From Minisyncoccota bacterium (lineage in GTDB: Bacteria > Patescibacteriota > Minisyncoccia > Phycocordibacterales > UBA5272), in contig JBAZJW010000001.1 of the NCBI GenBank assembly GCA_041651055.1, positions 472,506 to 536,505 on the forward strand: a DNA stretch of 64,000 bases, given 5' to 3'. The notes below the pieces were generated by a model. It searched no databases and was not told where the DNA came from. It saw only the letters and a program-made list of their open reading frames with translations. Position numbers and translations under genes: made by a program. Below are positions 5,354-49,763 of the stretch, in pieces; position 1 is the first letter of the stretch, and every line of letters begins with the position of its first letter.

Positions 5354-5386
5354 GCAAAGAGCGGCCACTTCGTGGCCGCTCTTTGC
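5354..5386 (-). terminator. Hairpin just downstream of the ileS stop codon
   Basis: gcaaagagcggccac-ttcg-tggccgctctttgc abuts the ileS stop. Confidence 0.5.
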
Positions 5387-8300
5387 TATTTGATATCAAA
5401 TGACACCGTGCCGATTGAAGTTTCTGCAGTATACGAACCGTCCCCTTCAACAATTGAACCAACTCTACAGGTACCCATGAGAGTATCTTTGAATTGTTCT
5501 GGAATAGCGTAGCTCGTTACAAGCGTTACTAGATCTTTCGGTGTAAGGCCTTTTTCTTTTCGCGCATCTTGTACCGCGCGCATTAGATTACGAACGTCCC
5601 CTTCCTTTTGTAACTCTTCTGTAATAACAAGATCAAGCGCACATACGTCTGTGATAGTAGCGTCAAAGGCGAGCTCTTTCACATTGAGTTCATCCAAAAG
5701 AATCTGATGATACTCTAACGGAATCTCATTCTTAAGTGTTAGCTTTTGGAGTGGTTGACGAACGGCGATTTTCGCTTGTGTACGAAGGGAAAGAGCAGAG
5801 GTTACTACATCTCGTACGAGCTTCATTTCTTCTCGTACAGAGGCGTCAGATTCTGGCGCTTCTGGCCACACATCCAAATGCACTGATTCACGATCTCCTC
5901 CAATAGTCTGATACACACGTTCAGCGAGGAATGGCATAACCGGTGCAATGACTTTTGAAAATGTAAGTAGTACGTATGCCAATGTTTCCTGTGCATTCTT
6001 TTTATCATCTTCCCCTGTTTCACCTTTTAATCTATCTCGTGATCTACGTACATACCATACAGAAAGATCGTCAACGAGTGCTTCGATTGGCCGTGTCGCA
6101 TCATCGAGAATATAGTCGTCGTATCCTTTGGTCGTCGAGGCGACAACCTCATTCACACGAGAAAGAATCCATCTATCCAAAACATTTTTAGAATCGGCGT
6201 TTCCTTTCACCTCCTCTTCTTTATTCATCTCATATAGAGAAAGAACATTCTCAAGACGTGAAATAACTTTCTTGTACACATCTTCAACAAGTGAATCTCC
6301 GAAAAGAATATTTTCGCCTTTAACCACAGAACTAGAAAGAAGAGCATAACGCATTGCATCCGCTCCATACTTTTCTACAAGTTCGAGTGGGTCAGTGTAA
6401 TTCTTTTCACTCTTGGAAAGCTTTACTCCTGATTCTGCCATAACAAGACCGTTTACAATCACATGCTTATACGGTGCCTTGTCGAACAATCCGACACCCA
6501 GATTAATAAGTGAGTAAAACCATCCTCTCGTTTGATCCAAACCTTCAGCAATGAAATCTGCAGGATAATTTTTATCAAAGATTTCTTTATTCTCAAACGG
6601 ATAATGAACCGATGCAAAAGGCATTGACCCAGACTCAAACCAACAATCAAACACGTCCGGTATACGAGTGTAGATAACACCATCAACAGAAAGTTTTATT
6701 TCATCGATGTACGGACGATGAAGATTAATAGCACCTGTCTCATCTCGTGGCACAAATTTCACATCTAGTTTTGTGAAGGCTCCATTTTTAAGATACATAT
6801 GCGTGTGCTCGAGAGCTTCATCTGCAATTACCTCTTCCTCTGTTGCAAGATTTGATCCAGCAATAACCATTCGAAGTGGTCCACCATGAGTGACAAGAAG
6901 AATATTTTTACCTTCATTATTTTTTTCTTCATCATACACACATGCCATCATTCTGTTCATTATTTCTTCATGCGTCTCCCCTCCTTGTGGGCGATGATCA
7001 AAACGTAAGAAATCAAGTTTTCCGTTTACCTTAAGATAGTCTGCTATTTTCCACCCATCATAAATACCGAGATGATTTTCTGAAAGACGATTATCCACCA
7101 CTACATCCTTCACACCAAGAATATCCGCAATAATCTTGGCTGTTTCTTCCGAACGAATAAACGGTGACATAACAATACGATCAATGTGCATGTCTTTCAA
7201 TTTTTCAGCGCTAGCTCTGATTTGTTCTTTGCCTTTTTCGGTAAGGTGGTTATTTGGATCACCCACGGTATCTAGTATTTCGTCAACATTACTCTGTGCT
7301 TCACCATGACGAATAGCATAGAAATTATTTTTTGCGGCGTAGGCATTTTTCTCCGCAAGATCTTTTAGGGAGCCGATCATCACCGCATCACCATTTTCAT
7401 TTTTCCATACAGGAAGTGGCGCACCCCAATACCGTGTGCGCGATACCGCCCATTCACGAGCCCCCTCCAGCCATTTACCAAATCGCCCGTCACGTGTATG
7501 CGCTGGTGTCCATCCAATCTTCTGATTTTCGGAAATGAGCTTATCTTTTATCTTTGGCACATCTACGAACCAACTCGATGTCGCATAATTAAGAAGCGGT
7601 GTTTTACATCGCCAACAAAGTGGATACGAGTGAATGATTTTATGCTTCTCAAAAAGCAGACCATTATGTGCGAGATACTTTATGATTTCAATATCCGCTG
7701 ACTGCGTGTCATCTTTTACTTTCACTTTCATTCCTGCAAAATCAGTGACAGCCGGAATAAACGTGCCATCCATTTTCACATGCTTAATCACAGGAATATT
7801 GTTTGCCTTGGCAAGCTCCATATCTTCGGCACCGAAAGCTGGTGCTTCATGTGCGATACCCGTACCTGTGTCGAGTGTGATAAAATCTGCATGCCAGATT
7901 TTGAAAATGTTTTCTTTATGTTCGATGTCAGCATTTTGAAAATATGGGAATACTGGTTTGTATGATTTTCCAATTAAAGTTTCACCAGAAAAAGTATCAA
8001 TTACCTCATACTTCATTTCTTTTAATACATCTTCTTTTCTATCATTTGCAAGAATATACAACCCCTCCATATCTTCAATAGAAACTTTTATATAGAGAGC
8101 TTTTCTAGAAAGTGCAAGAGCAACGTTTCCTGGAAGTGTCCACGGTGTCGTTGTCCACGCAAGAACAAAAGTTCCTGGTTCATCTGTAAGTTCAAACTTT
8201 GCCGTCACAGAAAGATCTGTTACATCGTGATACTCAAGACCTACCTCTGATTGAGCAAGAGGTGTCTCACATCTCGGACAGATGTGCATCATTTTGTTTC

Positions 8301-8829
8301 CTTCATACGCTAGCCCTTTTTCATACAAGGTCTTCCATGCCCACCAAATACTTTCGGTGTATGTCGCATCCATTGTTTTGTATGGATGATCCATATCTAC
8401 GAAACGACCAAGACGTGGAATAACCTTTTTCCATTCTTCTTCATACTGAAGCACGCTCTCATACGCATCTTTATTAAACTTTCCAATACCAAATTCTTCA
8501 ATATCTTTTTTACTTGCGAGACCAAGTTTCTTTTCTATCAAGTTCTCAACAGGAAGGCCGTGGCAGTCCCATCCCCAAACACGACGAACACTTTTACCGT
8601 TCATTGTCTGATATCTGGGAATAGCATCTTTGATAGTGCCTGCCAAGATATGACCAAAGTGTGGAAGACCTGTCGCAAATGGTGGACCGTCATAAAATGA
8701 AAACGATTCTTTTTCTGCTTCCCCTTCCGGCGTTTCTATAGACTTTTCAAAAATCTTTTTGTCCTGCCAAAAAAGAAGCGTCTCTTGCTCCTTTTCATTT
8801 ATTGTTTTTGGGGTTGAGTTGTTGTTCAT
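5386..8829 (-). CDS. ileS: Isoleucyl-tRNA synthetase (type 2, eukaryote-like) with an inserted histidine-phosphatase (PGAM-like) domain
   Basis: HIGH-type motif PPFATGLPHFGH and KMSKS variant GVKLSKSEK. Editing-domain and WGAPLPVW / DCWFESGSMP blocks present. Residues ~493-700 are an in-frame insertion carrying the catalytic RHGE and LVTHGGPLR motifs. Confidence 0.9.
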   Translation of the reverse strand: MNNNSTPKTINEKEQETLLFWQDKKIFEKSIETPEGEAEKESFSFYDGPPFATGLPHFGHILAGTIKDAIPRYQTMNGKSVRRVWGWDCHGLPVENLIEKKLGLASKKDIEEFGIGKFNKDAYESVLQYEEEWKKVIPRLGRFVDMDHPYKTMDATYTESIWWAWKTLYEKGLAYEGNKMMHICPRCETPLAQSEVGLEYHDVTDLSVTAKFELTDEPGTFVLAWTTTPWTLPGNVALALSRKALYIKVSIEDMEGLYILANDRKEDVLKEMKYEVIDTFSGETLIGKSYKPVFPYFQNADIEHKENIFKIWHADFITLDTGTGIAHEAPAFGAEDMELAKANNIPVIKHVKMDGTFIPAVTDFAGMKVKVKDDTQSADIEIIKYLAHNGLLFEKHKIIHSYPLCWRCKTPLLNYATSSWFVDVPKIKDKLISENQKIGWTPAHTRDGRFGKWLEGAREWAVSRTRYWGAPLPVWKNENGDAVMIGSLKDLAEKNAYAAKNNFYAIRHGEAQSNVDEILDTVGDPNNHLTEKGKEQIRASAEKLKDMHIDRIVMSPFIRSEETAKIIADILGVKDVVVDNRLSENHLGIYDGWKIADYLKVNGKLDFLRFDHRPQGGETHEEIMNRMMACVYDEEKNNEGKNILLVTHGGPLRMVIAGSNLATEEEVIADEALEHTHMYLKNGAFTKLDVKFVPRDETGAINLHRPYIDEIKLSVDGVIYTRIPDVFDCWFESGSMPFASVHYPFENKEIFDKNYPADFIAEGLDQTRGWFYSLINLGVGLFDKAPYKHVIVNGLVMAESGVKLSKSEKNYTDPLELVEKYGADAMRYALLSSSVVKGENILFGDSLVEDVYKKVISRLENVLSLYEMNKEEEVKGNADSKNVLDRWILSRVNEVVASTTKGYDDYILDDATRPIEALVDDLSVWYVRRSRDRLKGETGEDDKKNAQETLAYVLLTFSKVIAPVMPFLAERVYQTIGGDRESVHLDVWPEAPESDASVREEMKLVRDVVTSALSLRTQAKIAVRQPLQKLTLKNEIPLEYHQILLDELNVKELAFDATITDVCALDLVITEELQKEGDVRNLMRAVQDARKEKGLTPKDLVTLVTSYAIPEQFKDTLMGTCRVGSIVEGDGSYTAETSIGTVSFDIK

Positions 8830-9171: not shown

Positions 9172-10029
9172 TTATTTAATAATCCTTGCAAATAAACTCT
9201 CAGTAATGTCACCTGACCCAGCACCTTCTTTTGTTGTTATGTAACCAGTTTCACCTCTTTCGTATGCAAAGAGAGCTGCAGCAGACAAAAGCTTATCTTT
9301 CTCATCCTTGAGATCAATTGAATTATATACAGCGTGAAGTGACTGAAGTACGTCACTGCGATGACGGTAAGTTTCTTCTAGGTGTTTTTCAGCATTATAG
9401 TTTTTTCTAAAAAATTGAACAATCTGAAAAAAGAAGAAGGCCAGCACTGCTTTTAAGATAAACACAACCAAAGAAAGATTGTACATAACATCTTCTGCTA
9501 GATGTGATTTTATAAATTTATAGTCGGAAATATTTACAAAAAATAATAACCCTATAACAAATAGCAGCATTGTTATTGCTATAAAATACCAGTTACGCAT
9601 ATTGTTTGCCAAAACCTCATGACGACCGGCTGTTGTTGAAAAAGTTTTTGAATATGCTGCAAGGGCAGTTGCCCCACTGGCTAGTTTTGCTACACGATTA
9701 AGATCTTCTAAATCAGAACTACTTTCTTGAACTTTATTTGCAAGAACATCAACGTTTTTCCCTAATTTTTTTAGATCAGTATCTTTGTAGATTTTCCAAG
9801 CAATATATTTGATAATAATATCTGCAAAATAATCACGATAACCATTAATTACGTTCGGGTTATCTTTTAGTTGTTGTACTAACCCTTTGTGTTGTTGATT
9901 TAGCAGGTTTTGAAAACCGCTATCAAGAACCACTTCTGTAAGAAGAGCCCAATCTTCACCGCCTGCCGAAATTGCTGAACTTTTTATTGCTTCTGGTGTT
10001 GCCATTTTATTTTTTATTACCGTAAACAA
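9172..10029 (-). CDS. Hypothetical protein with two central TM helices
   Basis: 285-aa ORF in a ~30% GC block. Soluble N-domain (~145 aa), 2 TM, soluble C-tail. Confidence 0.5.
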   Translation of the reverse strand: MFTVIKNKMATPEAIKSSAISAGGEDWALLTEVVLDSGFQNLLNQQHKGLVQQLKDNPNVINGYRDYFADIIIKYIAWKIYKDTDLKKLGKNVDVLANKVQESSSDLEDLNRVAKLASGATALAAYSKTFSTTAGRHEVLANNMRNWYFIAITMLLFVIGLLFFVNISDYKFIKSHLAEDVMYNLSLVVFILKAVLAFFFFQIVQFFRKNYNAEKHLEETYRHRSDVLQSLHAVYNSIDLKDEKDKLLSAAALFAYERGETGYITTKEGAGSGDITESLFARIIK

Positions 10030-10708
10030 TGTACAAAATTAAGCGATAATAAATCAATACATAGAAAAGGAAAGAAATAAAAGCAAGTATTGGTACAATT
10101 ATTGTGGCTTCTACGTAGAAGATAATACTAGGTTTAAAATTTATAATAGCAGATGATAAGTTTGTTACATCTTTTAAGTTTTGGTCATAGAAACTGATGC
10201 CGTGAAAATAACATTTTCTACTTTTATCTTCGTTAAATTGTTTTTTGATAACATCAGAAAATATGTCTAATGAAGTTGCTTGTGCTTTTTCGTAGCTTAA
10301 AGTTTTTAGATATGATGAGTATAATACTTTTGATATACCTTCTAAATATTTTTCTGGATTTTTAACACAAAAAGTTCCTTCTTCTATTTTACCTAAAGAA
10401 TATTCAGAAATATAATCTATACTACCGTCTACTAAAAGACCAAACTCTCCTTCTTGTTTAAAGAAAGTTGGAATAGTATTATTACTATCTTCTCCGTTGT
10501 AATTTTCTGTAAACTGGTAAAGTGTATTTTTGATAACGATATTATGTTTACTGAAAAAAGCTCTATCTGGGTAAAAGATAATACTTATATAGGAAGCAAT
10601 GGCTATAATTGAAAAAAGTGATATAAAAATTACTTTTATTAATCTATGCCACCAGTGTTTATTTAATTCTAAACTTTCACGAAATAACCAAGATTTTATT
10701 TTTTCCAT
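10007..10708 (-). CDS. Hypothetical membrane protein with N- and C-terminal TM helices
   Basis: 233-aa ORF overlapping the downstream gene by 23 nt. AT-rich. Confidence 0.5.
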   Translation of the reverse strand: MEKIKSWLFRESLELNKHWWHRLIKVIFISLFSIIAIASYISIIFYPDRAFFSKHNIVIKNTLYQFTENYNGEDSNNTIPTFFKQEGEFGLLVDGSIDYISEYSLGKIEEGTFCVKNPEKYLEGISKVLYSSYLKTLSYEKAQATSLDIFSDVIKKQFNEDKSRKCYFHGISFYDQNLKDVTNLSSAIINFKPSIIFYVEATIIVPILAFISFLFYVLIYYRLILYIVYGNKK

Positions 10709-12695: not shown

Positions 12696-13877
12696 TTATT
12701 TCACTGCACTTCGTAAAACCTCGTCGATTCTTTTTGCGATGACTTTCATATCTTTTTCTTTCTTTCCACGAGTGGTTTCTGCAGCAGTGCCCAATCTGAT
12801 ACCGGACGGATCCATCACACCACGTGGATCTTGAGGGATAGTATTCATGTTCACGATGATGCCGGCAGCCTCAAGAGCATCTGATGCCACTTTTCCTGAT
12901 ACACCCTTACCTTGTGCCCACGTGTCCACCAAGAGTAGGTGTGAGTCTGTTCCACCTGTGATAACTTTCCATCCACGAACTTCCAATTCTTTGGCGAGCG
13001 CTTGTGCATTCTTAACAACATTCTTTGCATACGTTTTGAATGCTGGAGCAGCAGCCTCACGAAGCGCTACCGCAACCGCAGCGATCTGATTATTGTGAGG
13101 CCCACCTTGAAGACCAGGAATAATTGTCTTGTCTATTTTCTTATCCATTTCTCGTTTATCCTTCTTTACAAAAATCATTGCCGAGCGTGGACCACGAAGT
13201 GTCTTGTGTACCGTAGTAGTCACAACATCAGCATACGGGAACGGTGACGGATACGCTTCTCCTGCGACGAGACCTGCGAAGTGTGACATATCCACCATGA
13301 GCAGTGAGCCAGATTTCTTAGCAATCGCTGCGAACTTCTTGAAATCAACAATACGTGGATACGCTGTGAAGCCGCACACAATAATGTCTGGTTTTTCTGT
13401 CACCGCGATTTTTTCTAACTCTTTGTAATTAAGCGTTTCGGTTGTTGCATCTACTTCATACGGAACTTGCTTCCAGATTTTTCCCGTCATTGATACTGAT
13501 TGTCCATGTGTAAGATGTCCTCCACTTGAAAGTTTGAGACCCATGATCTTACCGCCGAGAGGAACAAGTGCAGAATACACGGCGAGATTTGCTGGTGACC
13601 CCGAGAGAGGTTGTACGTTCACGTGCCACTTCTTTTGATCAAGTTTAAACAATGAAAGTGCACGCTCTTGGGCGAGTGATTCTACTTCATCAATAATTTC
13701 ATTTCCTCCGTAATAGCGCTTACCTGGATACCCTTCTGAATATTTATTCGTAAGCGATGAGCCGAGCGCAGTGAGAACATCATCAGAAACGTAGTTTTCT
13801 GAGGCGATTAAATTGATGACACTGTGCTGGCGCTTGTCTTCTGCTTTTAATAACTTTTCAATGGCTTTGTCTTTCAT
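12696..13877 (-). CDS. glyA: Serine hydroxymethyltransferase
   Basis: Conserved SHMT blocks GYPGKRYYGG, SGSPANLAVY and TTTVHKTLRGPR. Confidence 0.9.
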   Translation of the reverse strand: MKDKAIEKLLKAEDKRQHSVINLIASENYVSDDVLTALGSSLTNKYSEGYPGKRYYGGNEIIDEVESLAQERALSLFKLDQKKWHVNVQPLSGSPANLAVYSALVPLGGKIMGLKLSSGGHLTHGQSVSMTGKIWKQVPYEVDATTETLNYKELEKIAVTEKPDIIVCGFTAYPRIVDFKKFAAIAKKSGSLLMVDMSHFAGLVAGEAYPSPFPYADVVTTTVHKTLRGPRSAMIFVKKDKREMDKKIDKTIIPGLQGGPHNNQIAAVAVALREAAAPAFKTYAKNVVKNAQALAKELEVRGWKVITGGTDSHLLLVDTWAQGKGVSGKVASDALEAAGIIVNMNTIPQDPRGVMDPSGIRLGTAAETTRGKKEKDMKVIAKRIDEVLRSAVK

Positions 13878-27439: not shown

Positions 27440-28411
27440 TTATACCGTTACTTCATTTAATCCTTTTCCTTTTTCAAAAAAATGAATAACGTTTTCCGCC
27501 ACGCTCTCCGACATCTTTTGTCTCACACTATCTCGTGATGATGCAATATGTGGTGTCAGAACAACATTTGGAAGTGCGAGCAATTCACGCGACACCGAAG
27601 GCTCGAATTCGTACACATCGAGTCCGGCACCTTTGATGAGCCCTCCTGTAAGTGCGATGATGAGAGCCCCTTCGTCAACCACTGGTCCACGGGACGTGTT
27701 GATGAGGAATGCACTTTTTTTCATCTGCAATAACGCATCTTTATCAATTAAATGTTTCGTTGAAGGAAGGAGTGGTACGTGAAGAGAAATAATATCACTT
27801 GTTTGTAGCAATGTTTCCTTGTCGACATAGGTTGCTCCATATTTTTCTTCGATGACACTATTTCGAGCAACATCACTATAGATAATCGGACAATTAAAAC
27901 CACCGTGCACTATCGCTGCCACCTCTTGACCAATAGCTCCTCCTCCAAAAAGTCCTATCGTTTTCCCTGTAAGGTCGGTACCGTTGAAAAGATATGGTGA
28001 CCAGCCTTTGTATTTGTCTGCTCTCATAAAAAGATCACCTTCTATTGTTCGTGTGGTGAGCGATAGCATGAGAGCGACAGCGTGTTCGGCGACAGCACGA
28101 GACGATGTTCCGGGGGTGTTCGTTACGACAACATTTCTCTTCTTTGCCTCTTCAATATTAATGTTGTTGTAGCCGACGGAGTACTGAGCAAAGATTTTTG
28201 CTGTCGGACAAGCATCAAACAGCGCAGCATCAACCTCATCCGTAAGAAAACAAATAACCGCATCATATGGTTTTTGAGAAAGCGCGTGGACGAGTTCTTT
28301 GTGTGTAGGCGCTTCTTCTTTTTCACCAACATCTACCGTATATCCTTTTTCTTTAAGCAGTGCGACACCATTTTCTGGAATGCGGCGTGTTATATAAATG
28401 AGTTTTGACAT
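27440..28411 (-). CDS. D-isomer-specific 2-hydroxyacid dehydrogenase (glycerate/hydroxypyruvate reductase-like)
   Basis: NAD-binding GLFGGGAIGQEVA. Catalytic R/E/H framework typical of the family. Confidence 0.8.
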   Translation of the reverse strand: MSKLIYITRRIPENGVALLKEKGYTVDVGEKEEAPTHKELVHALSQKPYDAVICFLTDEVDAALFDACPTAKIFAQYSVGYNNINIEEAKKRNVVVTNTPGTSSRAVAEHAVALMLSLTTRTIEGDLFMRADKYKGWSPYLFNGTDLTGKTIGLFGGGAIGQEVAAIVHGGFNCPIIYSDVARNSVIEEKYGATYVDKETLLQTSDIISLHVPLLPSTKHLIDKDALLQMKKSAFLINTSRGPVVDEGALIIALTGGLIKGAGLDVYEFEPSVSRELLALPNVVLTPHIASSRDSVRQKMSESVAENVIHFFEKGKGLNEVTV

Positions 28412-28420
28412 AGCGTTAAA

Positions 28421-29206
28421 TTAGAGAACTTTATGAGCCTCTGCATTAGAAATAATTCTATCCATCATCTCTACGGTCTCGATAGGATGTTCTCCTTCAG
28501 TAGTTTCTTCGGACAACATCACTGCACTCGCTCCACCTGTAACGGCGAATGCTACATCAGTTACCTCCGCTCGTGTCGGTCTTTTTGCGTGCACCATAGA
28601 AAGAAGCATTTCGGTTGCAACAATAACAAATTTATTCTTCTTTATGCATGATGATAGTATTCTTCGTTCAAGGAACGGCACCTCTTCTATTGGAAATGCC
28701 TGACCGAGATCACCGCGCGCAATCATGACTGCATCTGCTGCATCAATAATTGCTTCAATATCTTCCACTGCCTCGACCCTCTCGATCTTAGCAATGATAG
28801 GAATGTGCGCTCCGAGCTTTTCAATGTGTGAACGAAGAAGCGTCACATCCTCTGCTTTTCCTACATAGGAAAGGGCAATGTAGTCAACAGCGTGTGCAAC
28901 ACCAAATGTGAGGTCATCTAAATCTTTCTCAGTAAGAACACTCTCTCTATCACCATTAAAATGATGTCCACCTTCTTCTTGTGTTCGAGGACCAGACAAA
29001 TCCTGTATGATAGAGATTGTTTTTCCATGCTCAACACTAATTCTTCTTACCGTTTCAATATAGTGCTCCATGTCATCATGCGTACCCCATGAAAAGTTGA
29101 GTCGCACCATATCAAGATGTGGGAGCATTGCCACAAGAACTTCTTCCGCCCGAGTAGCGGGACCCAGTGTTGCAATTATTTTTGTTTTTCTTTCTGTGTG
29201 TTCCAT
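28421..29206 (-). CDS. pyk: Pyruvate kinase, minimal (barrel domain only)
   Basis: KIIATLGPA N-terminus, MIARGDLG and VATEMLLSM blocks. Only 261 aa, so the lid (B) and C-terminal domains appear absent. Confidence 0.65.
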   Translation of the reverse strand: MEHTERKTKIIATLGPATRAEEVLVAMLPHLDMVRLNFSWGTHDDMEHYIETVRRISVEHGKTISIIQDLSGPRTQEEGGHHFNGDRESVLTEKDLDDLTFGVAHAVDYIALSYVGKAEDVTLLRSHIEKLGAHIPIIAKIERVEAVEDIEAIIDAADAVMIARGDLGQAFPIEEVPFLERRILSSCIKKNKFVIVATEMLLSMVHAKRPTRAEVTDVAFAVTGGASAVMLSEETTEGEHPIETVEMMDRIISNAEAHKVL

Positions 29207-29224
29207 ACGTAGTAATAAGTGGTA

Positions 29225-30448
29225 TTAATTTTTTTGTATTGCAAGCAGTCGTGCGTACTTCACCTCGCGCTCTTTCGGTCCACGAGCACCAGACTTCATG
29301 CCGAAACAATAGAATGCAGATGTAATATCTGCAATCATTGTATCTGACGTCTCCCCACTTCTGTGACTCACGATACACTTGATTCCTTTTTCTTCCGCAT
29401 ACCTTATCGTATCAATTGTTTCTGACAGTGTACCTATTTGATTCGGCTTCACAAGGAGACCTGAAATACTTCCCATTTCAACAGCTTGTGTTACACGCAG
29501 AATATTCGTTACCGTAAGGTCATCGCCGACAATTATCACATCCGGAATATCCTTTTTTAGTTGTGAGAACGATTCAAAATCTTCTTCATAAAAAGGATCC
29601 TCTATTGAAATAAGGGGGAAGGCCTCCACAAGAGAAACATAGGTATCATGAAGCTCTTCTTGTGTATGTTGTTCACCTCCGATGGTATACATTTTTGTTG
29701 CTTCGTCATAGAAAGATGTGGCTGCAACATCGAGCGCAAACATCACTTCATTTTCAACACCGCATTGCTTCACCGCTTGAGAGAGGAGTTCGAGCGGTTC
29801 ACGAATATTATCCGTTGGAACAGCGTACCCTCCCTCGTCCCCGCGCGCGACTTCACCATATTTTTCTTTCACGATTTCACCCAGTGTATCTTGTACCTTC
29901 TGTGCGATTTCGAGTGATCTTGAAATGCTGTGAACCGTTGGCACGAGATGATATTCCTGAAACGAAAGCGCGGTAGACGCATGCTTGCCGCCATTGATAA
30001 GATTAAAATAAAGAAGCGGACACTTTTCTTCTGACGAAACTTCTGCAAGGCTTTGCAAATATTCGTAAAATTCTTTACCGAGAGATTGCGCTGCCGCTTT
30101 ACCACATGCAACGCTCACACCGAGAATACTATTCCCTCCTAACTTTTCTTTATTCGGTGTACCGTCCATTTCTATAAGAAGCGCATCGATACCCCGCTGA
30201 TCAGTAACATCAAAACCTTCAAGTGCGGGGGCAATAACAGTATTAATAATTTCTTGTGCCTTCGTGACGCCACCATGAGATGTGCCGTCATCACGAAGCT
30301 CAAAAGCCTCATACTTTCCTGTGCTTGCGCCTGAGGGCACAGCACATACCCCTACACCTCCTCCGCTTGTCGTTACCGTAACCGAAAGCGTTGGTACGTT
30401 TCGTGAGTCTTCTATAATGTCCGCAACGATTGAAGTAATGGTATTCAT
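29225..30448 (-). CDS. eno: Enolase
   Basis: SHRSGETSDT signature. Full-length enolase blocks. Confidence 0.9.
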   Translation of the reverse strand: MNTITSIVADIIEDSRNVPTLSVTVTTSGGGVGVCAVPSGASTGKYEAFELRDDGTSHGGVTKAQEIINTVIAPALEGFDVTDQRGIDALLIEMDGTPNKEKLGGNSILGVSVACGKAAAQSLGKEFYEYLQSLAEVSSEEKCPLLYFNLINGGKHASTALSFQEYHLVPTVHSISRSLEIAQKVQDTLGEIVKEKYGEVARGDEGGYAVPTDNIREPLELLSQAVKQCGVENEVMFALDVAATSFYDEATKMYTIGGEQHTQEELHDTYVSLVEAFPLISIEDPFYEEDFESFSQLKKDIPDVIIVGDDLTVTNILRVTQAVEMGSISGLLVKPNQIGTLSETIDTIRYAEEKGIKCIVSHRSGETSDTMIADITSAFYCFGMKSGARGPKEREVKYARLLAIQKN

Positions 30449-30451
30449 ATA

Positions 30452-31720
30452 TTAATTTCGTATCATGAGATATAAATCAGATACATTACTTCCTGTATCT
30501 CCTGTAATAATTGCATCTCCTGTTTCCATAAAAAGTTCACTGTCTTTATTTTCTTCGTGATAGGCTTTACTGTCTATGTTTTTTTCTTGTAATTTCTTTT
30601 TTGTATCTGCATCTGCAATGGCACCAGCAGCGACAGATTTGTTATCAATACCATCAGAAGCAAAAGCAATGAACATATCATTCTCACCGATAATATCCAG
30701 TGCCTGATTCGCAATATATAAATTCCTTCCTCCTACTCCCCCACTTTTTGAAAGAGCAATAGAAAGCTCTCCTCCTGCGATAACCATTGTCTTTGGTTTC
30801 AGTAGACTCTCTGCATTTTTGAGAAATACGTCAGGACTATCGTATACTTCATCTCCAAGAATAATAACCTCGTACCCCCTTCTCTTTCCCTCTGCTTCCA
30901 TTTTCCAAAGGGCTTCTTTGTTCGAGATAAAAGGAATATTCCTAACCTTCGTAAACACCTGCTCGTCTTTTGGCGTCTCATTAAAGATAAAATGTTCGTT
31001 AACATTATGTTTTACTAAAAGATTTTCAGCGTCCGAGATTGTGGTTGTATCCAAATACGTCGGACCAGATGCTACGTCTTTAAAATGATCTCCTGGGACA
31101 TCAGAAAAAATAAGACTTACCACCGTTGCAGGATGTAACATCTTCGCCAACCCTCCACCCTTAATAGATGACACATGCTTACGCAGTGTGTTGAGATCTT
31201 TAATATTCCCTCCAGCTTTAAGCAACTCTGAATACAGGAGCGCCCCCTGTTCACACTCAGAGAGAGGTAAACAAAGAAGGGCCGATCCTCCGCCGGACAC
31301 AATAACAATCGCCAAATCTTTTTCGGTAAGAGATTCTGCAAGATCTGCAATTTTTTGTGACACCTCGACATTGTGTGGACTTGGAAGCGGGTGTGTTCCC
31401 TCGAACACTTCTACGACATCACATTTCGTTGCATGTTTATCAATAACAATTCCTTCCGTCAAAAAATCCCCCAATATGCGTTCAAGTTCTTTCGCAGCCT
31501 TGCATGAAGCTTTTCCAAAACCAATGATCACGACTCGTTCATACTGGCTGAGCTCATATGGATGCCCTTGTATAGAAAGAGTCCCATCCTCTAGTGTTAT
31601 TTTAGAAGTCATTGCAGACACCGTATCGATTGCCCTGTACCCCTCTTCGATGATTGACAAAGCGTCTATGCGTAGCTGGTTTGTAGCAAGACTGTCGAAA
31701 TTAGAAATGATGCGAGACAT
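30452..31720 (-). CDS. Glycerate kinase (MOFRL family, glycerate 2-kinase-like)
   Basis: DUF4147 N-terminal and MOFRL C-terminal pattern. VSGGGSALL block. Confidence 0.65.
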   Translation of the reverse strand: MSRIISNFDSLATNQLRIDALSIIEEGYRAIDTVSAMTSKITLEDGTLSIQGHPYELSQYERVVIIGFGKASCKAAKELERILGDFLTEGIVIDKHATKCDVVEVFEGTHPLPSPHNVEVSQKIADLAESLTEKDLAIVIVSGGGSALLCLPLSECEQGALLYSELLKAGGNIKDLNTLRKHVSSIKGGGLAKMLHPATVVSLIFSDVPGDHFKDVASGPTYLDTTTISDAENLLVKHNVNEHFIFNETPKDEQVFTKVRNIPFISNKEALWKMEAEGKRRGYEVIILGDEVYDSPDVFLKNAESLLKPKTMVIAGGELSIALSKSGGVGGRNLYIANQALDIIGENDMFIAFASDGIDNKSVAAGAIADADTKKKLQEKNIDSKAYHEENKDSELFMETGDAIITGDTGSNVSDLYLMIRN

Positions 31721-45373: not shown

Positions 45374-45804
45374 AGTTATTTAATTAATTGATAACTGTGG
45401 TGAGATACAAAAAGCCCACCACGTGAGTGAAGTCTTGCGACTTCCATATCCGTTTCCAGATATGACCGGTAAAGGTAAATCCCACATGATGGGTTCTTTA
45501 TCCTTTACCGGGTTTTCGACCATACCTTACAAGAAATTCTCACAAGGGTTAGGTCTCTTTATTGATTTGTTGTTTTATTTTATCACTTTTAGTGACTTTT
45601 GCATCCTAGCTTAGCTTCAGGTGTTTGTGTAGTCTTGACTTCAACCAAGTGTGAGGCATACACTGGGAGCAGTTCAGAAGCAAAACGAAATACCTACCTA
45701 AACAGAAGAGGACGGAATACCCATTCCCAACCCTCGCTTGTTTGGGTGGGTATTTTTGTTTCTGACATACCTAAACGGATTTACTAATTAACAATATATT
45801 TGTT

Positions 45805-47133
45805 ATGAATAATCTAAACATTGTGTATGTTAGCGTAACAGACATTAAGCCCGCAGAATATAATCCGCGCAAGTGGAGCGAAACTCAAGCGGAAGCTCTT
45901 AAGGAGAGCATTACTAGATTCGGTATGGTGGACCCACTCATCTGTAATTTATTTGAGGGACGAAAGAATATTCTCATCGGAGGACATTTCCGTTTCAAGA
46001 TTGCACAGGACTTAGGATTCGCTGAAGTTCCTGTGGTGTATGTTTCAATCTCTGACCTTGCTAAGGAAAAGGAACTCAACCTTCGTCTTAATAAGAATGT
46101 CGGTGAGTTTGACTTCACTCTTCTCAAAGAGTTTGATGAAGCATTCCTTGAAGATATTGGTTTTGGTTCTTCTGAACTAGATACTATCTTCGATATAGAA
46201 ACCGTTGAAGAGGTATTTGATTTAGAAAAGGAACTTAAGAAGTTAGATATTAATGAAGTAAACGTAAAGAAAGGAGATATCTATGAACTCGATGGCTCAC
46301 GCCTTATGTGTGGTGATTCAACAGTAGACGGTCAGTGGGAAACACTTTGTAACGGTAACCTTGCAGACATGTGCTTCACAGACCCGCCATATATTTTGGA
46401 CTATCTTCATGGCAAGACTCGTAACGGTAAAGCAACAGAAGGATTCGGTACAAAGAAGAATCGCAGGTATTTAGAAACAGAATCATTACCAGATAATTTC
46501 ACTGACCTTTGGATGGAACAAATTGCTAAAGTGCAGAAGAAGGACTTCTCAATCATCGTGTATGAGAATCCAAAGAACCTGCGAACCATTTGGAACGCAC
46601 TTGAGAAACATTGGAAGTACCGCAATACGATTATCTGGCACTTACCAAACCGTATGCAGGGATTCTCTGCGAAGTACAAGTTCTTCAATAAGCATGACTT
46701 CGCTATTGTTGGATCAATTGGAAACGTGGAACTCAATCTTAAAGACGAGGACGATCTCTTCCAAACGGAATACGAGACAGCGCTCTTTGCAACGTCTGGC
46801 TCACCTTATTGGGAATCCTATGGTAAAGGCAAGAAGTACTGCCCAACGGATTTCATTGAGTACAAGTCATCGGATGCAAAATCTTCTGGGCAAGGAATAA
46901 TCTTCGGTACGAAACCACTGGAGATTCTCATCTCGTATATCAAAGTACTCACTAAACGCAATGACTTAATCCTAGAGCCGTTTGGAGGGTCAGGAAGCAC
47001 GTTAATTGCTTCAGTTAAGATGGGACGTCGCTGTTACATTATGGAAAAGTCACCAGTATACGCAGAAGTAATTCTCAAGCGCTGGGAGAAGGCCACTGGA
47101 AAGAAACCAGTTAAGGTAGAACTCCATGGCTAG
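45805..47133 (+). CDS. ParB-like N-terminal domain fused to an N6/N4 DNA methyltransferase (beta class)
   Basis: ParB/Srx block IGGHFRF. DPPY motif IV (CFTDPPYILDY) precedes FxGxG motif I (EPFGGSGSTLIA). Confidence 0.8.
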   Translation: MNNLNIVYVSVTDIKPAEYNPRKWSETQAEALKESITRFGMVDPLICNLFEGRKNILIGGHFRFKIAQDLGFAEVPVVYVSISDLAKEKELNLRLNKNVGEFDFTLLKEFDEAFLEDIGFGSSELDTIFDIETVEEVFDLEKELKKLDINEVNVKKGDIYELDGSRLMCGDSTVDGQWETLCNGNLADMCFTDPPYILDYLHGKTRNGKATEGFGTKKNRRYLETESLPDNFTDLWMEQIAKVQKKDFSIIVYENPKNLRTIWNALEKHWKYRNTIIWHLPNRMQGFSAKYKFFNKHDFAIVGSIGNVELNLKDEDDLFQTEYETALFATSGSPYWESYGKGKKYCPTDFIEYKSSDAKSSGQGIIFGTKPLEILISYIKVLTKRNDLILEPFGGSGSTLIASVKMGRRCYIMEKSPVYAEVILKRWEKATGKKPVKVELHG

Positions 47134-47788
47134 TCGTAGGGCTAGCAAAACACCTAAACAGAAAAAGTCTCCTCAATCTGAAACGGCGACCCAGAAAGAG
47201 AAACTACTTGTGCAGTTAACCAAAGTTCCCATTGTGCAGATTGCCACAGAGCGAGTCGGTATAGGACGCTCTACGTATTACGCGTGGCGAGATACCGATG
47301 AAGAGTTTCGAGAGCTAGCAGACAAGGCATTACGAGAAGGAAACTGTGTCATCAATGACTTGGCTGAATCTCGCCTTATTAAGAATATTCAAGAAGGCAA
47401 CAATACTTCGATTATCTTCTGGCTGAAGAACCACAGCAGTAACTACTCAGACCGTATCGTTCACCAAATGGAACTTCCTAAGTTTACAGCGGAAGACGCA
47501 AAAGAACTTGGGCAGACATTCCTTCGAGCATTTGGTGGGTCGCTTGCTAAAGTTCCTCAACATATCGTTGACGAGTTCCAGGACAAGAATTGGGAGTTAG
47601 ATGAAGATGAGCTTGAAACTCTTAACGAGCACATGAAGCAAGATGTGATTGTTCCGCTTACCGAGGAAGACATGGAAATGACTGATGAGGAAAATGAAGT
47701 TGTCGATCTTCCACCACCAAAGTCATCTCCAAATACGAAACGACGAGGTGTTAATTTGCAAGAGTTTGAGAAACGGAGGAAGAAGTAG
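47126..47788 (+). CDS. HTH DNA-binding protein, phage terminase-small-subunit-like
   Basis: HTH segment VQIATERVGIGRSTYYAWRD. Overlaps the MTase stop by 8 nt. Acidic C-terminus. Confidence 0.45.
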   Translation: MASRRASKTPKQKKSPQSETATQKEKLLVQLTKVPIVQIATERVGIGRSTYYAWRDTDEEFRELADKALREGNCVINDLAESRLIKNIQEGNNTSIIFWLKNHSSNYSDRIVHQMELPKFTAEDAKELGQTFLRAFGGSLAKVPQHIVDEFQDKNWELDEDELETLNEHMKQDVIVPLTEEDMEMTDEENEVVDLPPPKSSPNTKRRGVNLQEFEKRRKK

Positions 47789-47795
47789 ATAGAAT

Positions 47796-47818
47796 AAAAC
47801 CCACGTTACGTGGGTTTT
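47796..47818. terminator. Bidirectional hairpin between convergent genes
   Basis: aaaacccacgt-t-acgtgggtttt. Confidence 0.55.
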
Positions 47819-47850
47819 ATTCTTCAGACAATATGGTAGTAACTTGCATA

Positions 47851-48738
47851 CTACTCAGGTTGTGCTTGAGACTCTGCTTGTTTCTTAGCTACAGTCTTGT
47901 CGACAACCTCAAGTAAATGACTGAGCATTATTATTCTTGAGGCTGCTTCATGTGGTGGCAACTGATCTACGTTACCGTGACCAACAATGTTCTTACACCA
48001 TTGCATTGCACCCATAGCAACTAGCATAAATCCCTCTTTCTCATCCATTGGATTTGCAATCGCACTTCCATGGTATCGAGAGACATCTATTAGTGGGGTA
48101 TCTTTGTTGAATACTTGTGCCATAAGGTTACGTCCGAATTGACCATGTACCCCTGACCACCTCATGATTTCTGTTTCTGTAATTTCTCCAGCTTTCCTCA
48201 CTGACTCATTCATGTAGCCATCCTTGAATAAAGGGATAACATCAGACAATAATGTCTTATGCAGCCCGATGCCTTGTAGTGATTGAAGGATCACTGGGTT
48301 CGGAGGTGTTATCGCTGGACGTGTAATAGGTAATTCAAGTTCATCTATTTCCTTTCTCAGATCAATGCCGAACTCCAGGAGCTTCTCTTTGAACAAATCT
48401 GCTTCTGGTCTTAACCAAGGATTACCCTGTGAACGACATCTTATGATGCAATCTGCAAGAATGTCATTTATCAAACGCTTCAACGTTTTCGGATGTGCTT
48501 TATGTACAGCAGAAATGAAGTGAGTGAATTGCTTCTTTTTGCTCTGTCCTTCAAGGAAGTACTTCGATAGACCTTTGTTTTTTGCAATCTTCTGTAAACA
48601 AAACGGGCTACGAGACGTTGCAGGGAGTAATTTACCCAACATTTCTGCAAGATCTTGGATCACTTGCTGTTGTCTGGGCGAATAGCGTTTCCTTGATGGA
48701 ACTGCTTTTCTTTTCGCCTTTTTAATGACTTTCTTCAT
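47851..48738 (-). CDS. Hypothetical protein (possible Abi/Ymh-like C-terminal region)
   Basis: 295-aa ORF with a basic N-terminus. C-terminal block HGQFGRN...VGHGNVDQLPPHEAASRII. Confidence 0.45.
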   Translation of the reverse strand: MKKVIKKAKRKAVPSRKRYSPRQQQVIQDLAEMLGKLLPATSRSPFCLQKIAKNKGLSKYFLEGQSKKKQFTHFISAVHKAHPKTLKRLINDILADCIIRCRSQGNPWLRPEADLFKEKLLEFGIDLRKEIDELELPITRPAITPPNPVILQSLQGIGLHKTLLSDVIPLFKDGYMNESVRKAGEITETEIMRWSGVHGQFGRNLMAQVFNKDTPLIDVSRYHGSAIANPMDEKEGFMLVAMGAMQWCKNIVGHGNVDQLPPHEAASRIIMLSHLLEVVDKTVAKKQAESQAQPE

Positions 48739-48750
48739 AGGAAGAATTTA

Positions 48751-49536
48751 TTACTCTTCCGAAACATTAACTTCAGGCACCATCTCTTTGAGGTGTGCAT
48801 TAGAAAATGCTGTTAGCGCAGTACGGGCATCTTTCAAATCCCCATCAGCGATAGCATTCGATGTTGCTTCATTGCGTGGAATAATGAGCTTAATTCCGCC
48901 TTTGAAATTGAAAACGAAACTGTCGGTCTCTTCTGCTCTGACAGTGTTTGAAAGTGAGGGTGCTTTTTCTGTAACCTTATTTGGTGTTACAGTAGTCTCA
49001 GTTGGAATTACTTCACTTGCTCCTTGTAACTCTGATAAAACCAATATTTCGTTCTGCATCATTCCAGAGTATTCTGCTGATCTTACGAAATTTCTTGCTG
49101 CAGTATCTTTCGCCGCCGCTTCAATACCGTAGTCGTGTACTAAAAGGTTACCGAGTGTCTGAACTTCTGGCAACTTCTTACCTTTGAAGACCTCAACTAA
49201 TTCTCCATAGAGTTGAGGGGCAACGAACGCTTTACGTATCGCTTGAACTTTCGATGGTTCATCTCGCGGAAACGCTATCTCTTTTCCTAGTGGAGAAAGA
49301 GATAGTTTGCCGCTTTCCTGATTTATTAGGCCGAACTGTTTAGCAGAGCTCACACGACCGATAAAAGTCGAGTTGTTTACTGCCTTACCCATATGTGCGG
49401 CGACAGCATCACCAGATACTCTATTTCCACCCAGAGTATTTACGATACCGATAAACGTGATAACTTCCTCAAGGTCATAGCGGGGGTATAACCTACTTCT
49501 TGCCTTTGTTTCCTTTTCTTTTGGTGTATTTTCCAT
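48751..49536 (-). CDS. Hypothetical protein
   Basis: 261-aa ORF upstream of the 47851 gene, same strand with a 12-nt gap. Confidence 0.45.
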   Translation of the reverse strand: MENTPKEKETKARSRLYPRYDLEEVITFIGIVNTLGGNRVSGDAVAAHMGKAVNNSTFIGRVSSAKQFGLINQESGKLSLSPLGKEIAFPRDEPSKVQAIRKAFVAPQLYGELVEVFKGKKLPEVQTLGNLLVHDYGIEAAAKDTAARNFVRSAEYSGMMQNEILVLSELQGASEVIPTETTVTPNKVTEKAPSLSNTVRAEETDSFVFNFKGGIKLIIPRNEATSNAIADGDLKDARTALTAFSNAHLKEMVPEVNVSEE

Positions 49537-49763
49537 ATAAATTAACTTTTAGTGTGATTAACGGAGTTTGTGCCTCCTGTTTGATATCGTACCAAATAAA
49601 TGGAAGTAAAGTCAAGTGTTTGTGCAAGAACTTCTACCTGTTTTATAAATCCCTTATTTATCAAGCACTTATGTATAGTTATCCACATAGAAAGCAGTGA
49701 TTAGGAGTGGAATACAAAACCGTATATTACCTACTTGACTAGTCCAGGGCCCTGCGTCATTCA

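What the first reader, a model, noticed from the sequence alone, without database searches (positions are those of the whole stretch)
6730..7353. Isoleucyl-tRNA synthetase with an in-frame histidine-phosphatase (PGAM-like) domain inserted in its connective-peptide region
The 1147-aa ileS ORF is one continuous frame. Canonical IleRS blocks flank the insertion on both sides: WGAPLPVW...AVMIGSLKDL upstream, and INLHRPYIDE...DVFDCWFESGSMP downstream. Between them, residues ~493-700 form a ~200-aa module with the hallmarks of histidine-phosphatase superfamily branch 1: YAIRHGEAQSN (catalytic RHG), LTEKGKEQ, SPFIRSEET and LVTHGGPLR (second catalytic His). In ordinary IleRS this position holds only a short zinc-binding connective peptide. 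I know of no described aaRS carrying a phosphoglycerate-mutase-type phosphatase. The conserved catalytic residues argue the domain is functional, possibly acting on a nucleotide or phospho-intermediate, or on a regulatory substrate.
Basis: seen in the sequence. Interest (0 to 1): 0.85.

Follow-up and report, generated by a model that had tools for sequence, protein, structure and literature searches.

The report
Isoleucyl-tRNA synthetase carrying a nested phosphatase
The enzyme that loads isoleucine onto tRNA here has a complete, apparently active phosphatase domain built into a surface loop; this design is shared by a whole class of ultra-small (CPR) bacteria, recurs in their valine enzyme, and I found no paper describing it.

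Summary
ORF 5386-8829 (-) is one 1147-aa frame. It is a type-2 IleRS (TIGR00392, 841 bits). Residues 493-699 are a His_Phos_1 domain (Pfam E 2e-33) nested in the CP3 subdomain, where the closest solved IleRS has about 9 residues.

It is not an assembly artefact. The best 80 species-level genomes (Paceibacteria/Parcubacteria MAGs) and the best 120 database relatives all carry it. In 72 of the 80 loci one unbroken ORF of 1130-1300 aa spans it; in the other 8 the ORF is shorter, mostly cut by a contig end.

The catalytic set R507-H508, N514, R559, E584, H648 is conserved in at least 79 of 81 sequences. dN/dS of the insert is 0.02-0.09, like the synthetase core.

The domain resembles small phosphatases (PhoE, PspA, CobC), not mutases.

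Related CPR proteins show the same domain at three or four other IleRS sites, in one to four copies. It also sits at the homologous CP3 site of ValRS.

Of the 150 nearest domain clusters, 92 sit in IleRS or ValRS and none in any other host.

The substrate is unknown. I favour an active phosphomonoesterase tethered to the synthetase for a synthetase-linked job. An unrelated housekeeping passenger is the main rival.

The architecture is common in databases. Nine full-text searches, a few of which turned up papers I then read, gave no description. Interest is moderate to high.

The parts
5386..8829 (-). ileS: type-2 isoleucyl-tRNA synthetase with nested phosphatase, 1147 aa plus stop codon
   Evidence: Single ORF. 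TIGR00392 841 bits against cutoff 621. Pfam tRNA-synt_1, Anticodon_1 and DUF5915. Best solved relative is IleRS2 8c8u, E 5e-208.
7354..8829 (-). IleRS residues 1-492: first Rossmann half, CP core, CP1 editing domain, CP2, and first half of CP3 (WGAPLPVW...SLKDLA)
   Evidence: Aligns to 8c8u residues 9-475. The threonine-rich editing motif WTTTPWTLPG is present.
8650..8661 (-). HIGH signature (HFGH, residues 57-60)
   Evidence: Translation.
6733..7353 (-). Nested histidine-phosphatase (His_Phos_1) domain with its linkers, residues 493-699
   Evidence: PF00300 E 2.3e-33. AF2 pLDDT 92-97 over residues 491-700 in the full-length model. A domain-only model matches PspA, CobC, Rv3214 and PhoE folds. 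dN/dS 0.02-0.09.
7303..7311 (-). R507-H508-G509: phosphate-binding Arg and the nucleophilic His
   Evidence: Translation. R and H are each kept in 80 of 81 aligned sequences. In the broader set of 170 domain copies, 145 keep the full six-residue pattern R-H-N-R-E-H.
7288..7290 (-). N514, phosphate pocket
   Evidence: Kept in 79 of 81.
7153..7155 (-). R559, second phosphate-binding Arg (SPFIRSEET)
   Evidence: Kept in 80 of 81.
7078..7080 (-). E584, general acid/base
   Evidence: Kept in 81 of 81.
6886..6888 (-). H648, second catalytic His (LVTHGG)
   Evidence: Kept in 80 of 81.
5389..6732 (-). IleRS residues 700-1147: second half of CP3 (AINLHRPYIDEIKLSVDGVIYTRIP), second Rossmann half, stem-contact fold, anticodon-binding domain and type-2 C-terminal domains
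   Evidence: Aligns to 8c8u residues 485-892. Anticodon_1 at 885-1029 and DUF5915 at 1000-1105.
6409..6423 (-). KMSKS signature (KLSKS, residues 803-807)
   Evidence: Translation.

Best explanation
This is a genuine, lineage-wide bifunctional protein. Shown: a complete type-2 IleRS (HIGH, KMSKS, CP1 editing motifs, anticodon-binding and C-terminal domains intact) carries a folded branch-1 histidine-phosphatase domain inside its CP3 subdomain. The domain has every catalytic residue and is under purifying selection as strong as on the synthetase core. Inferred: the synthetase still charges and edits tRNA-Ile. The nested domain is an active PhoE/PspA-type phosphomonoesterase. R507, R559, N514 and H648 would hold the phosphate, H508 would attack it to form a phospho-histidine, E584 would protonate the leaving alcohol, and water would release phosphate. 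My commitment: the domain is kept on IleRS (and on ValRS in other CPR lineages) because its activity is used at or next to the synthetase. What is selected is tethering, not an exact geometry. CP3 follows directly on the CP2-CP3 linker, which in yeast IleRS lines the pocket for the tRNA CCA end. The most plausible substrates are therefore a terminal phosphate on tRNA or a nucleotide-type phosphomonoester met at the synthetase. The substrate itself is a guess.
For: Architecture and integrity. Not an artefact: all of the best 80 species-level loci match across both junctions, and in 72 of them one unbroken ORF of 1130-1300 aa spans the match. The other 8 are shorter, mostly cut by a contig end. 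All of the best 120 database relatives carry PF00300, and a 97%-identical fragment from another dataset carries it too (P0157). Selection on catalysis: R507, H508, R559 and H648 are each in 80 of 81 sequences, N514 in 79, E584 in 81, while the insert has diverged to about 39% identity. Insert dN/dS is 0.024, 0.027 and 0.085, against 0.033, 0.047 and 0.071 for the core, in three close pairs. Folded domain with confident linkers: pLDDT 87-97 across residues 481-700. Junction residues N501 and P694 are kept in 98% of sequences. Host specificity: of the 150 nearest 50%-identity clusters, 92 are nested in IleRS or ValRS, 49 are free-standing, 9 are tandem pairs, and none sits in any other host. Recurrence: the domain occurs at the window's site (492/700), at about 711/722, at about 741-757 and at about 866-881 of IleRS. 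It also occurs in ValRS between WGxxxP and DxxDTWF, the homologous CP3 site, in 72 of the 119 nearest ValRS, in one to three copies there, and in four in the ValRS fragment P0005. Nearly every copy keeps the catalytic pattern. CP3 position: PMC7191050, PMC7955072.
Against: No substrate is shown and no activity has been measured. The conserved residues are only the generic family core. Nothing distinguishes nested copies from free-standing CPR homologues. Use of several sites far apart in the sequence, together with variable copy number, argues against substrate channelling and fits a mere passenger equally well. The insert evolves faster than the core over long distances (49% against 81-88% identity). 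Gene neighbours (argS, recO, a DUF11 protein) give no hint. Whether the genome holds a second, plain IleRS was not testable.
Confidence: 0.45

Rival explanations
1. Housekeeping passenger. The domain is an active small-molecule phosphatase, for example for phosphoserine, a sugar phosphate or a cofactor intermediate, whose function has nothing to do with aminoacylation. It sits in IleRS or ValRS only because their CP3 loop tolerates insertions and an essential, constitutively expressed host guarantees expression in a minimal genome.
For: The catalytic core is identical to free-standing CPR homologues, with no nested-specific residues. Many insertion sites and one to four copies occur. CP3 is structurally the most variable IleRS subdomain (PMC7191050). 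Other unrelated domains are also found nested in CPR IleRS or ValRS: GNAT, a REP-associated transposase, DUF559 and HU. The nearest solved relatives are metabolic phosphatases.
Against: Among the 150 nearest clusters the only multidomain hosts are IleRS and ValRS. The domain was inserted independently at the homologous CP3 site of two paralogous synthetases in different CPR classes. The junction residues are conserved and the linkers are modelled confidently.
Confidence: 0.35
2. Glycolytic phosphoglycerate mutase. The nested domain supplies cofactor-dependent mutase activity (3PG to 2PG and back) for the cell.
For: The best NCBIfam hit for the insert is the short archaeal-type dPGM model NF038349. 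The window's lower-glycolysis operon (glycerate kinase, enolase, pyruvate kinase) contains no mutase.
Against: NF038349 scores 99 bits against a cutoff of 225. TIGR01258 scores 29 against 81.7. All other dPGM equivalogs are far below their cutoffs. By my own reading of the sequence, the segment after E584 follows the PhoE pattern (E-x-x-x-G-x-x-x-G-K) and lacks the mutase Tyr, Lys and Arg-Arg substrate-binding motif (plus family knowledge). The best sequence matches in PDB are phosphatases. The glycerate 2-kinase route makes 2PG without a mutase.
Confidence: 0.07
3. Non-catalytic module. The fold is kept as a structural, tRNA-binding or phosphate-sensing element, or as a protein phosphatase or regulator of the synthetase, rather than as a metabolite hydrolase.
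For: Tandem arrays of two to four copies would suit avidity binding. In human IARS1, CP3 is a protein-docking surface (PMC13439101).
Against: A purely structural role would not keep the nucleophile His, both Arg, the Glu and the second His nearly invariant in 145 of 170 diverged copies, including every member of the tandem arrays examined.
Confidence: 0.07
4. Artefact or selfish element: a chimeric misassembly, a pseudogene, or an intein or mobile insertion that is spliced out.
For: None beyond the unusual architecture. One relative (P0094) carries a transposase-like domain in the same gene.
Against: The same in-frame architecture appears in 80 independent species genomes and 120 database clusters from four sources. 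There is no Hint or intein Pfam hit and no Cys/Ser ... His-Asn-Cys/Ser/Thr splice junctions. There are no flanking repeats. Composition matches the host gene. Purifying selection is strong.
Confidence: 0.02

Closest known systems
Type-2 (eukaryote-like, mupirocin-resistant type) bacterial IleRS, e.g. Priestia megaterium IleRS2 (PDB 8c8u/8c8v) and Thermus thermophilus IleRS (1ile)
   Same: Full-length collinear match apart from the insert (E 5e-208; Foldseek top hits). Same HIGH and KMSKS signatures, CP1 editing domain, anticodon-binding domain and type-2 C-terminal domains.
   Different: About 207 residues replace about 9 at the tip of CP3. The four CP3 zinc-knuckle cysteines of 8c8u (CEGC...CPVC) are lost here.
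Small branch-1 histidine phosphatases: PhoE/YhfR of Geobacillus stearothermophilus (1ebb, 1h2e), phosphoserine phosphatase PspA (4ij5), CobC alpha-ribazole phosphatase, Rv3214, Rv2419c
   Same: Same fold and the same catalytic set. About 200 aa without the mutase C-terminal tail. These are the best sequence hits (E 1e-11 for PhoE) and the best fold hits.
   Different: Those enzymes are free-standing. Identity is only 20-29%, and no NCBIfam equivalog cutoff is reached, so substrate specificity cannot be transferred.
NCBIfam NF040702, 'isoleucine--tRNA ligase, N-acetyltransferase domain-containing'
   Same: It is a precedent, curated by NCBI, for an IleRS carrying an extra enzyme domain. A CPR relative (P0094) carries both a GNAT and the phosphatase.
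   Different: The added domain and its position differ. This protein scores 313 bits against a cutoff of 1999.
Bifunctional RNase H / acid phosphatase (Rv2228c type, NCBIfam NF005567)
   Same: A CobC/PhoE-like histidine phosphatase fused to a nucleic-acid enzyme. The insert matches the phosphatase half (82 bits, model positions 175-346).
   Different: That is an end-to-end fusion, not a nested domain, and the partner enzyme differs. The score is below the cutoff of 326.
CCA-adding enzyme of E. coli with its HD-domain phosphatase/phosphodiesterase (my own knowledge, not tested here)
   Same: A tRNA 3'-end enzyme that carries its own phosphohydrolase, thought to clean damaged tRNA ends. It is the functional analogy behind my preferred reading.
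   Different: The fold (HD) is unrelated and the domain is appended, not nested. No evidence here ties the CPR domain to tRNA ends.
Accessory domains of eukaryotic aminoacyl-tRNA synthetases; human IARS1 CP3 as docking site for LARS1 (PMC13439101)
   Same: CP3 is used as an evolvable peripheral platform on IleRS.
   Different: The eukaryotic additions are non-catalytic interaction modules. Here a complete second enzyme is inserted.

Membership tests
Isoleucyl-tRNA synthetase (class Ia; TIGR00392) | Equivalog HMM score above the curated cutoff | tested here: met
   841.4 bits against cutoff 621.4, in two stretches interrupted by the insert.
Isoleucyl-tRNA synthetase (class Ia; TIGR00392) | HIGH and KMSKS signature motifs | tested here: met
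   HFGH at 57-60 and KLSKS at 803-807.
Isoleucyl-tRNA synthetase (class Ia; TIGR00392) | CP1 editing domain and anticodon-binding domain present | tested here: met
   WTTTPWTLPG and GTGIAHEAPAFG motifs are in the sequence. The isolated CP1 structures 1wk8/1wny match residues 200-403. Anticodon_1 PF08264, E 4.5e-34.
Isoleucyl-tRNA synthetase (class Ia; TIGR00392) | Charges tRNA-Ile with isoleucine | not testable with these tools
   Inferred from intact motifs and strong purifying selection on the core.
Type-2 IleRS | Type-2 C-terminal domains and closest similarity to IleRS2, eukaryotic or MupA-type enzymes | tested here: met
   DUF5915 PF19302 at 1000-1105. Best PDB hits are IleRS2 8c8u, yeast, human and Thermus enzymes at E 1e-190 to 1e-208, against IleRS1 (1ffy) at 2e-90. 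MupA and MupB models score 681-691 bits.
Histidine phosphatase superfamily, branch 1 (Pfam PF00300) | HMM score above the gathering threshold | tested here: met
   115.9 bits, E 2.3e-33, against cutoff 21.7.
Histidine phosphatase superfamily, branch 1 (Pfam PF00300) | Catalytic set: RHG nucleophile His, two Arg, second His, acidic proton donor | tested here: met
   R507, H508, R559, E584 and H648, plus N514, are present. Each is kept in 79-81 of 81 homologues.
Histidine phosphatase superfamily, branch 1 (Pfam PF00300) | Alpha/beta fold of the family | tested here: met
   pLDDT 92-97 for the domain in the full-length model. The domain-only model (pLDDT 71) matches PspA, CobC, Rv3214, PhoE and dPGM at probability 1.00.
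Histidine phosphatase superfamily, branch 1 (Pfam PF00300) | Phosphomonoesterase or phosphotransfer activity through phospho-histidine | not testable with these tools
   Inferred from residue conservation only.
Cofactor-dependent phosphoglycerate mutase (dPGM) | Equivalog HMM scores above cutoff | tested here: not met
   NF038349 99 against 225; TIGR01258 29 against 81.7; NF002339 39 against 316; NF010713 25 against 305.
Alpha-ribazole phosphatase CobC / phosphoserine phosphatase PspA / phosphohistidine phosphatase SixA | Equivalog HMM scores above cutoff | tested here: not met
   TIGR03162 79 against 162.9; NF045917 50 against 350; TIGR00249 48 against 74.5.
Intein or other self-splicing insertion | Hint domain; N-terminal Cys/Ser and C-terminal His-Asn plus Cys/Ser/Thr at the junctions | tested here: not met
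   No Hint or intein Pfam hit. The junctions read ...LKDLA|EKNAY... and ...RDETG|AINLH....
IleRS with GNAT domain (NCBIfam NF040702) | Model score above cutoff | tested here: not met
   312.6 bits against cutoff 1999.

The most novel reading that the evidence does not exclude
The nested phosphatase is a third catalytic site of class Ia synthetases in CPR bacteria and takes part in tRNA charging itself. For example, it could remove a blocking 2'/3'- or 5'-terminal phosphate from tRNA-Ile or tRNA-Val before aminoacylation. Alternatively it could destroy, on the target enzyme, a phosphorylated inhibitor or near-cognate ligand. That second idea would fit the GNAT domains also found nested in CPR IleRS, and the peptide-nucleotide-antibiotic resistance hydrolases reported from Parcubacteria (PMC7157772). 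Either would be a new kind of built-in repair or self-defence step in aminoacyl-tRNA synthesis.
Probability: 0.2. Interest if true: 0.85.

Novelty: new variant of a known kind. Interest (0 to 1): 0.62.

Why it matters
Aminoacyl-tRNA synthetases are among the best-studied enzymes, and extra catalytic domains inside their cores are rare: the CP1 editing domain is the classic case. Here a whole bacterial class keeps a second, apparently active enzyme inside IleRS. The same domain entered IleRS and ValRS repeatedly, at several sites and in multiple copies, in different CPR lineages. That pattern points to a selective link between a phosphatase activity and Ile/Val-tRNA synthetases, and I found no paper that addresses it. 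The question is directly testable with recombinant protein.

There is also a practical consequence. The insertion appears to stop NCBI's pipeline from naming these proteins: they are labelled only 'class I tRNA ligase family protein'. If, as is possible though I did not check it, metabolic surveys of CPR genomes count phosphoglycerate-mutase-family hits without regard to domain context, some of those hits would be synthetase inserts.

Tried and rejected
(1) Misassembly, pseudogene or mobile insertion. Rejected by comparative data and junction inspection.

(2) Intein. No Hint domain and no splice junctions.

(3) Assigning a substrate through NCBIfam equivalogs, PDB sequence search or fold search. 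All characterised subfamilies score below cutoff, and fold hits do not discriminate: E is about 1e-10 for PspA, CobC, PhoE, Rv3214 and dPGM alike.

(4) Looking for residues specific to nested copies compared with free-standing ones. None was found beyond the generic core.

(5) Tracing the origin of copies at different sites by pairwise identity. All are about 35-42% identical to each other, so there is no resolution.

(6) Gene neighbourhood. The order argS-ileS-recO-DUF11 is conserved but uninformative. The free-standing homologue P0001 lies among ftsEX, UDG and NYN genes.

(8) Literature. Nine full-text searches, a few of which turned up papers I then read, gave no description of a synthetase with a histidine-phosphatase domain. 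A 2026 survey of IleRS evolution does not mention it.

(9) A second His_Phos_1 gene in the window. None.
Full report
**1.

The minus-strand ORF 5386..8829 is one uninterrupted frame of 1147 aa. Residue i lies at 8829-3(i-1), so the reported 6730-7353 is residues 493-700.

The segment alone scores 115.9 bits (E 2.3e-33) on Pfam His_Phos_1, against a cutoff of 21.7. The whole protein is an IleRS by the NCBI equivalog (TIGR00392, 841 bits against 621). Its strong similarity to MupA/MupB-type enzymes makes it type 2.

Against all solved structures, the best match is IleRS2 of Priestia megaterium (8c8u, E 5e-208). The alignment stops at query 492 / chain 475 and resumes at query 700 / chain 485. 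About 207 residues therefore stand where that enzyme has about 9. No solved synthetase has such an insert.

**2. Where the insert sits.**

Published domain maps place this stretch in CP3. This subdomain links CP2 to the second half of the Rossmann fold. It spans residues 473-534 in Candida IleRS and 459-526 in yeast IleRS.

CP3 has a different topology in every solved IleRS, and it binds zinc in Thermus (PMC7191050, PMC7955072). The CP2-CP3 linker just upstream is ARDWNVSRNRYWG in yeast and AREWAVSRTRYWG (457-469) here. In yeast it forms part of the pocket for the tRNA CCA end, where reveromycin binds (PMC7955072). In human IARS1, CP3 is a docking surface for LARS1 (PMC13439101).

The four knuckle cysteines seen in 8c8u are absent here. 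A relative (P0010) keeps them together with the insert, so loss of zinc binding is a separate event.

**3. It is real and lineage-wide.**

A scan of one genome per GTDB species found at least 490 relatives. The best 80 loci all match the 320-residue junction-spanning query from end to end. They come from Kaiser-, Adler-, Yonath-, Wolfe-, Taylor-, Nomura-, Vogel-, Lloyd- and Yanofskybacteria and other Paceibacteria/Parcubacteria MAGs.

In 72 of these 80 loci one unbroken ORF of 1130-1300 aa spans the match. In the other 8 it is shorter, mostly because the contig ends.

The best 120 relatives among 5.8 billion proteins (64-75% identity; NCBI, JGI, ENA and Logan sources) all carry PF00300. They include a 97%-identical fragment from another dataset. 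They are named only 'isoleucyl-tRNA synthetase' or 'class I tRNA ligase family protein'.

There are no repeats at the junctions. Composition is like the rest of the gene. There are no intein features.

The gene order argS-ileS-recO-DUF11 is kept in about 60 of the 80 loci.

**4. The phosphatase is under selection as an enzyme.**

Across the window plus the 80 loci, insert identity falls to about 39%. Even so, R507, H508, R559 and H648 are each present in 80 of 81 sequences, N514 in 79, and E584 in all 81. The family-typical E618 and R626, and the junction residues N501 and P694, are conserved as well.

Over long distances the insert diverges faster than the catalytic core: 49% mean identity against 81-88%. 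That is similar to the C-terminal domains.

Between close pairs, dN/dS is 0.024, 0.027 and 0.085 for the insert. For the core it is 0.033, 0.047 and 0.071. For the anticodon-binding and C-terminal part it is 0.06-0.14. dS is saturated, so these values are rough, but pN is far below pS.

AlphaFold2 on the 120-sequence alignment gives pLDDT 92-97 for residues 491-700, with confident linkers (87 and 83 for the blocks on either side). Overall pLDDT is 80 and pTM is 0.73.

**5. What kind of phosphatase.**

No characterised subfamily is reached. The archaeal-type dPGM model scores 99 against 225. CobC scores 79 against 163, PspA 50 against 350, SixA 48 against 74.5, and classic dPGM models 16-39 against more than 300.

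The nearest solved sequences are the broad-specificity phosphatase PhoE (E 1e-11), PspA, TIGAR and CobC. A domain-only model (pLDDT 71) hits PspA, a riboflavin-pathway phosphatase, Rv3214, CobC, Rv2419c, PhoE and mutases with indistinguishable scores.

By my own reading of the sequence, the stretch after E584 follows the PhoE pattern and lacks the mutase substrate-binding Tyr, Lys and Arg-Arg. I therefore call it a small PhoE/PspA-like phosphomonoesterase of unknown substrate, not a mutase.

**6. The wider pattern.**

This goes beyond the finding but bears on its mechanism. A full HMMER search of 1.84 billion cluster representatives with the insert gave 13,750 hits at E up to 1e-3.

Of the best 150:
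- 92 are nested in class Ia synthetases;
- 49 are free-standing proteins of 260 aa or fewer;
- 9 are tandem pairs;
- none sits in any other host.

Most nested copies use the window's site (492/700). Others lie at about 711/722, at about 741-757 and at about 866-881 of IleRS. Examples of the 741-757 site include P0151, an NCBI 'isoleucine--tRNA ligase' from Candidatus Peregrinibacteria. Some proteins carry two copies at two sites. One such protein, P0017, has six near-identical members on contigs up to 1.06 Mb.

P0144 is a bona fide ValRS (849 bits against 704) with two copies. P0005 is a ValRS fragment with four tandem copies.

Among the 119 nearest ValRS, 72 carry one to three copies. These ValRS carry names such as Peregrinibacteria and Gracilibacteria. 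The copies nearly always lie between WGxxxP and DxxDTWF, the site homologous to the window's CP3 site. A Nomurabacteria ValRS has none.

Nearly all copies, including each member of the tandem arrays, keep the R-H-N-R-E-H pattern.

Other domains also occur nested in these genes:
- a GNAT and a REP-associated transposase in P0094;
- DUF559 and HU domains in some ValRS.

NCBI already curates an 'IleRS with GNAT' family.

**7. Mechanism.**

Shown:
- an intact synthetase;
- an intact, folded and selected phosphatase domain;
- its nesting in CP3.

Inferred: IleRS works normally. The domain hydrolyses a phosphomonoester through a phospho-H508 intermediate. R507, R559, N514 and H648 would bind the phosphate and E584 would act as general acid.

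Two readings compete on why it is there.

For a functional link to the synthetase:
- exclusive IleRS/ValRS hosts among the nearest 150 clusters;
- repeated independent insertion, including at homologous sites of two paralogues in different CPR classes;
- conserved junctions.

Against a link, or for a mere passenger:
- no nested-specific residues;
- many sites and variable copy number, which fit tethering but not channelling;
- a notoriously plastic host loop;
- other unrelated nested domains.

I give the coupled, tethered-phosphatase reading 0.45 and the housekeeping-passenger reading 0.35. Smaller shares go to a mutase role (0.07), a non-catalytic or regulatory role (0.07) and an artefact (0.02).

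The substrate guess is a terminal phosphate on tRNA or a nucleotide-type monoester. It rests only on the position next to the CCA-pocket linker and on an analogy with the HD phosphatase of the E. coli CCA-adding enzyme. That analogy comes from my own knowledge.

**8. Novelty and score.**

The architecture is abundant in public sequence databases. Nine full-text searches, and the few papers I read from them, gave nothing. These included a CPR synthetase study, a CPR protein-family study and a 2026 IleRS evolution preprint. The held library lacks most subscription papers.

I class it as a new variant of a known kind: a synthetase with an added domain. What is unusual is that the addition is a complete second enzyme, that it is nested, that it recurs, and that it is lineage-wide. 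Interest is 0.62.

**9. Limits.**
- No coordinates were available for geometry.
- One structure library was missing.
- I could not check whole genomes for a second ileS, a free-standing phosphatase or a phosphoglycerate mutase.

Noticed in passing
window 9172-10708 (-): Two overlapping ORFs (285 and 233 aa, apparently membrane proteins) lie between argS and ileS. They have no Pfam hit. GC is 0.26-0.33 against about 0.41 around them. They have no homologue in any of the 80 related loci, although the order argS-ileS-recO-DUF11 is otherwise conserved. This looks like a lineage-specific insertion.
   Followed up: partly
window 27440-31720 (-): An operon encodes a D-2-hydroxyacid dehydrogenase, a very short pyruvate kinase (261 aa, barrel only), enolase and a glycerate kinase (DUF4147+MOFRL). 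It gives a glycerate to 2-phosphoglycerate to PEP to pyruvate route that needs no phosphoglycerate mutase. glyA lies at 12696-13877.
   Followed up: no
window 45429-45555 (-) and 45805-51098: A LOOT RNA (Rfam RF03000, 92 bits) sits beside a ParB_N-DNA methylase fusion (45805-47133) and a large serine recombinase (49764-51098). This may be an integrated element.
   Followed up: no
related proteins P0144, P0005, P0280-P0393 (ValRS) and P0017, P0041, P0056, P0083, P0151 (IleRS): The same phosphatase domain is nested in ValRS of Peregrinibacteria/Gracilibacteria-type CPR, in one to three copies at the homologous CP3 site among the nearest ValRS, and in four tandem copies in the ValRS fragment P0005. 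It is also nested at three or four other sites of IleRS, sometimes with two sites used in one protein.
   Followed up: partly
related proteins P0094, P0297, P0378, P0347: Other domains are nested in CPR class Ia synthetases. P0094 is an IleRS with a REP-associated tyrosine transposase domain, the phosphatase and a GNAT. ValRS P0297 and P0378 carry DUF559 (PF04480), and ValRS P0347 carries an HU domain (PF00216).
   Followed up: no
L009 3488-4357 (+): A free-standing 290-aa His_Phos_1 ORF (E 5e-16 against the insert profile) lies immediately upstream of an ileS that also carries the nested copy.
   Followed up: no
database names of relatives: NCBI names synthetases with the insert 'class I tRNA ligase family protein', whereas insert-free relatives are named 'valine--tRNA ligase'. 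The insertion seems to push these proteins below the naming rule, so essential synthetases look missing or unspecific in CPR genome annotations.
   Followed up: no
window 56433-58394 (-): An acetyl-CoA hydrolase/transferase is fused to a C-terminal GNAT acetyltransferase domain (653 aa).
   Followed up: no
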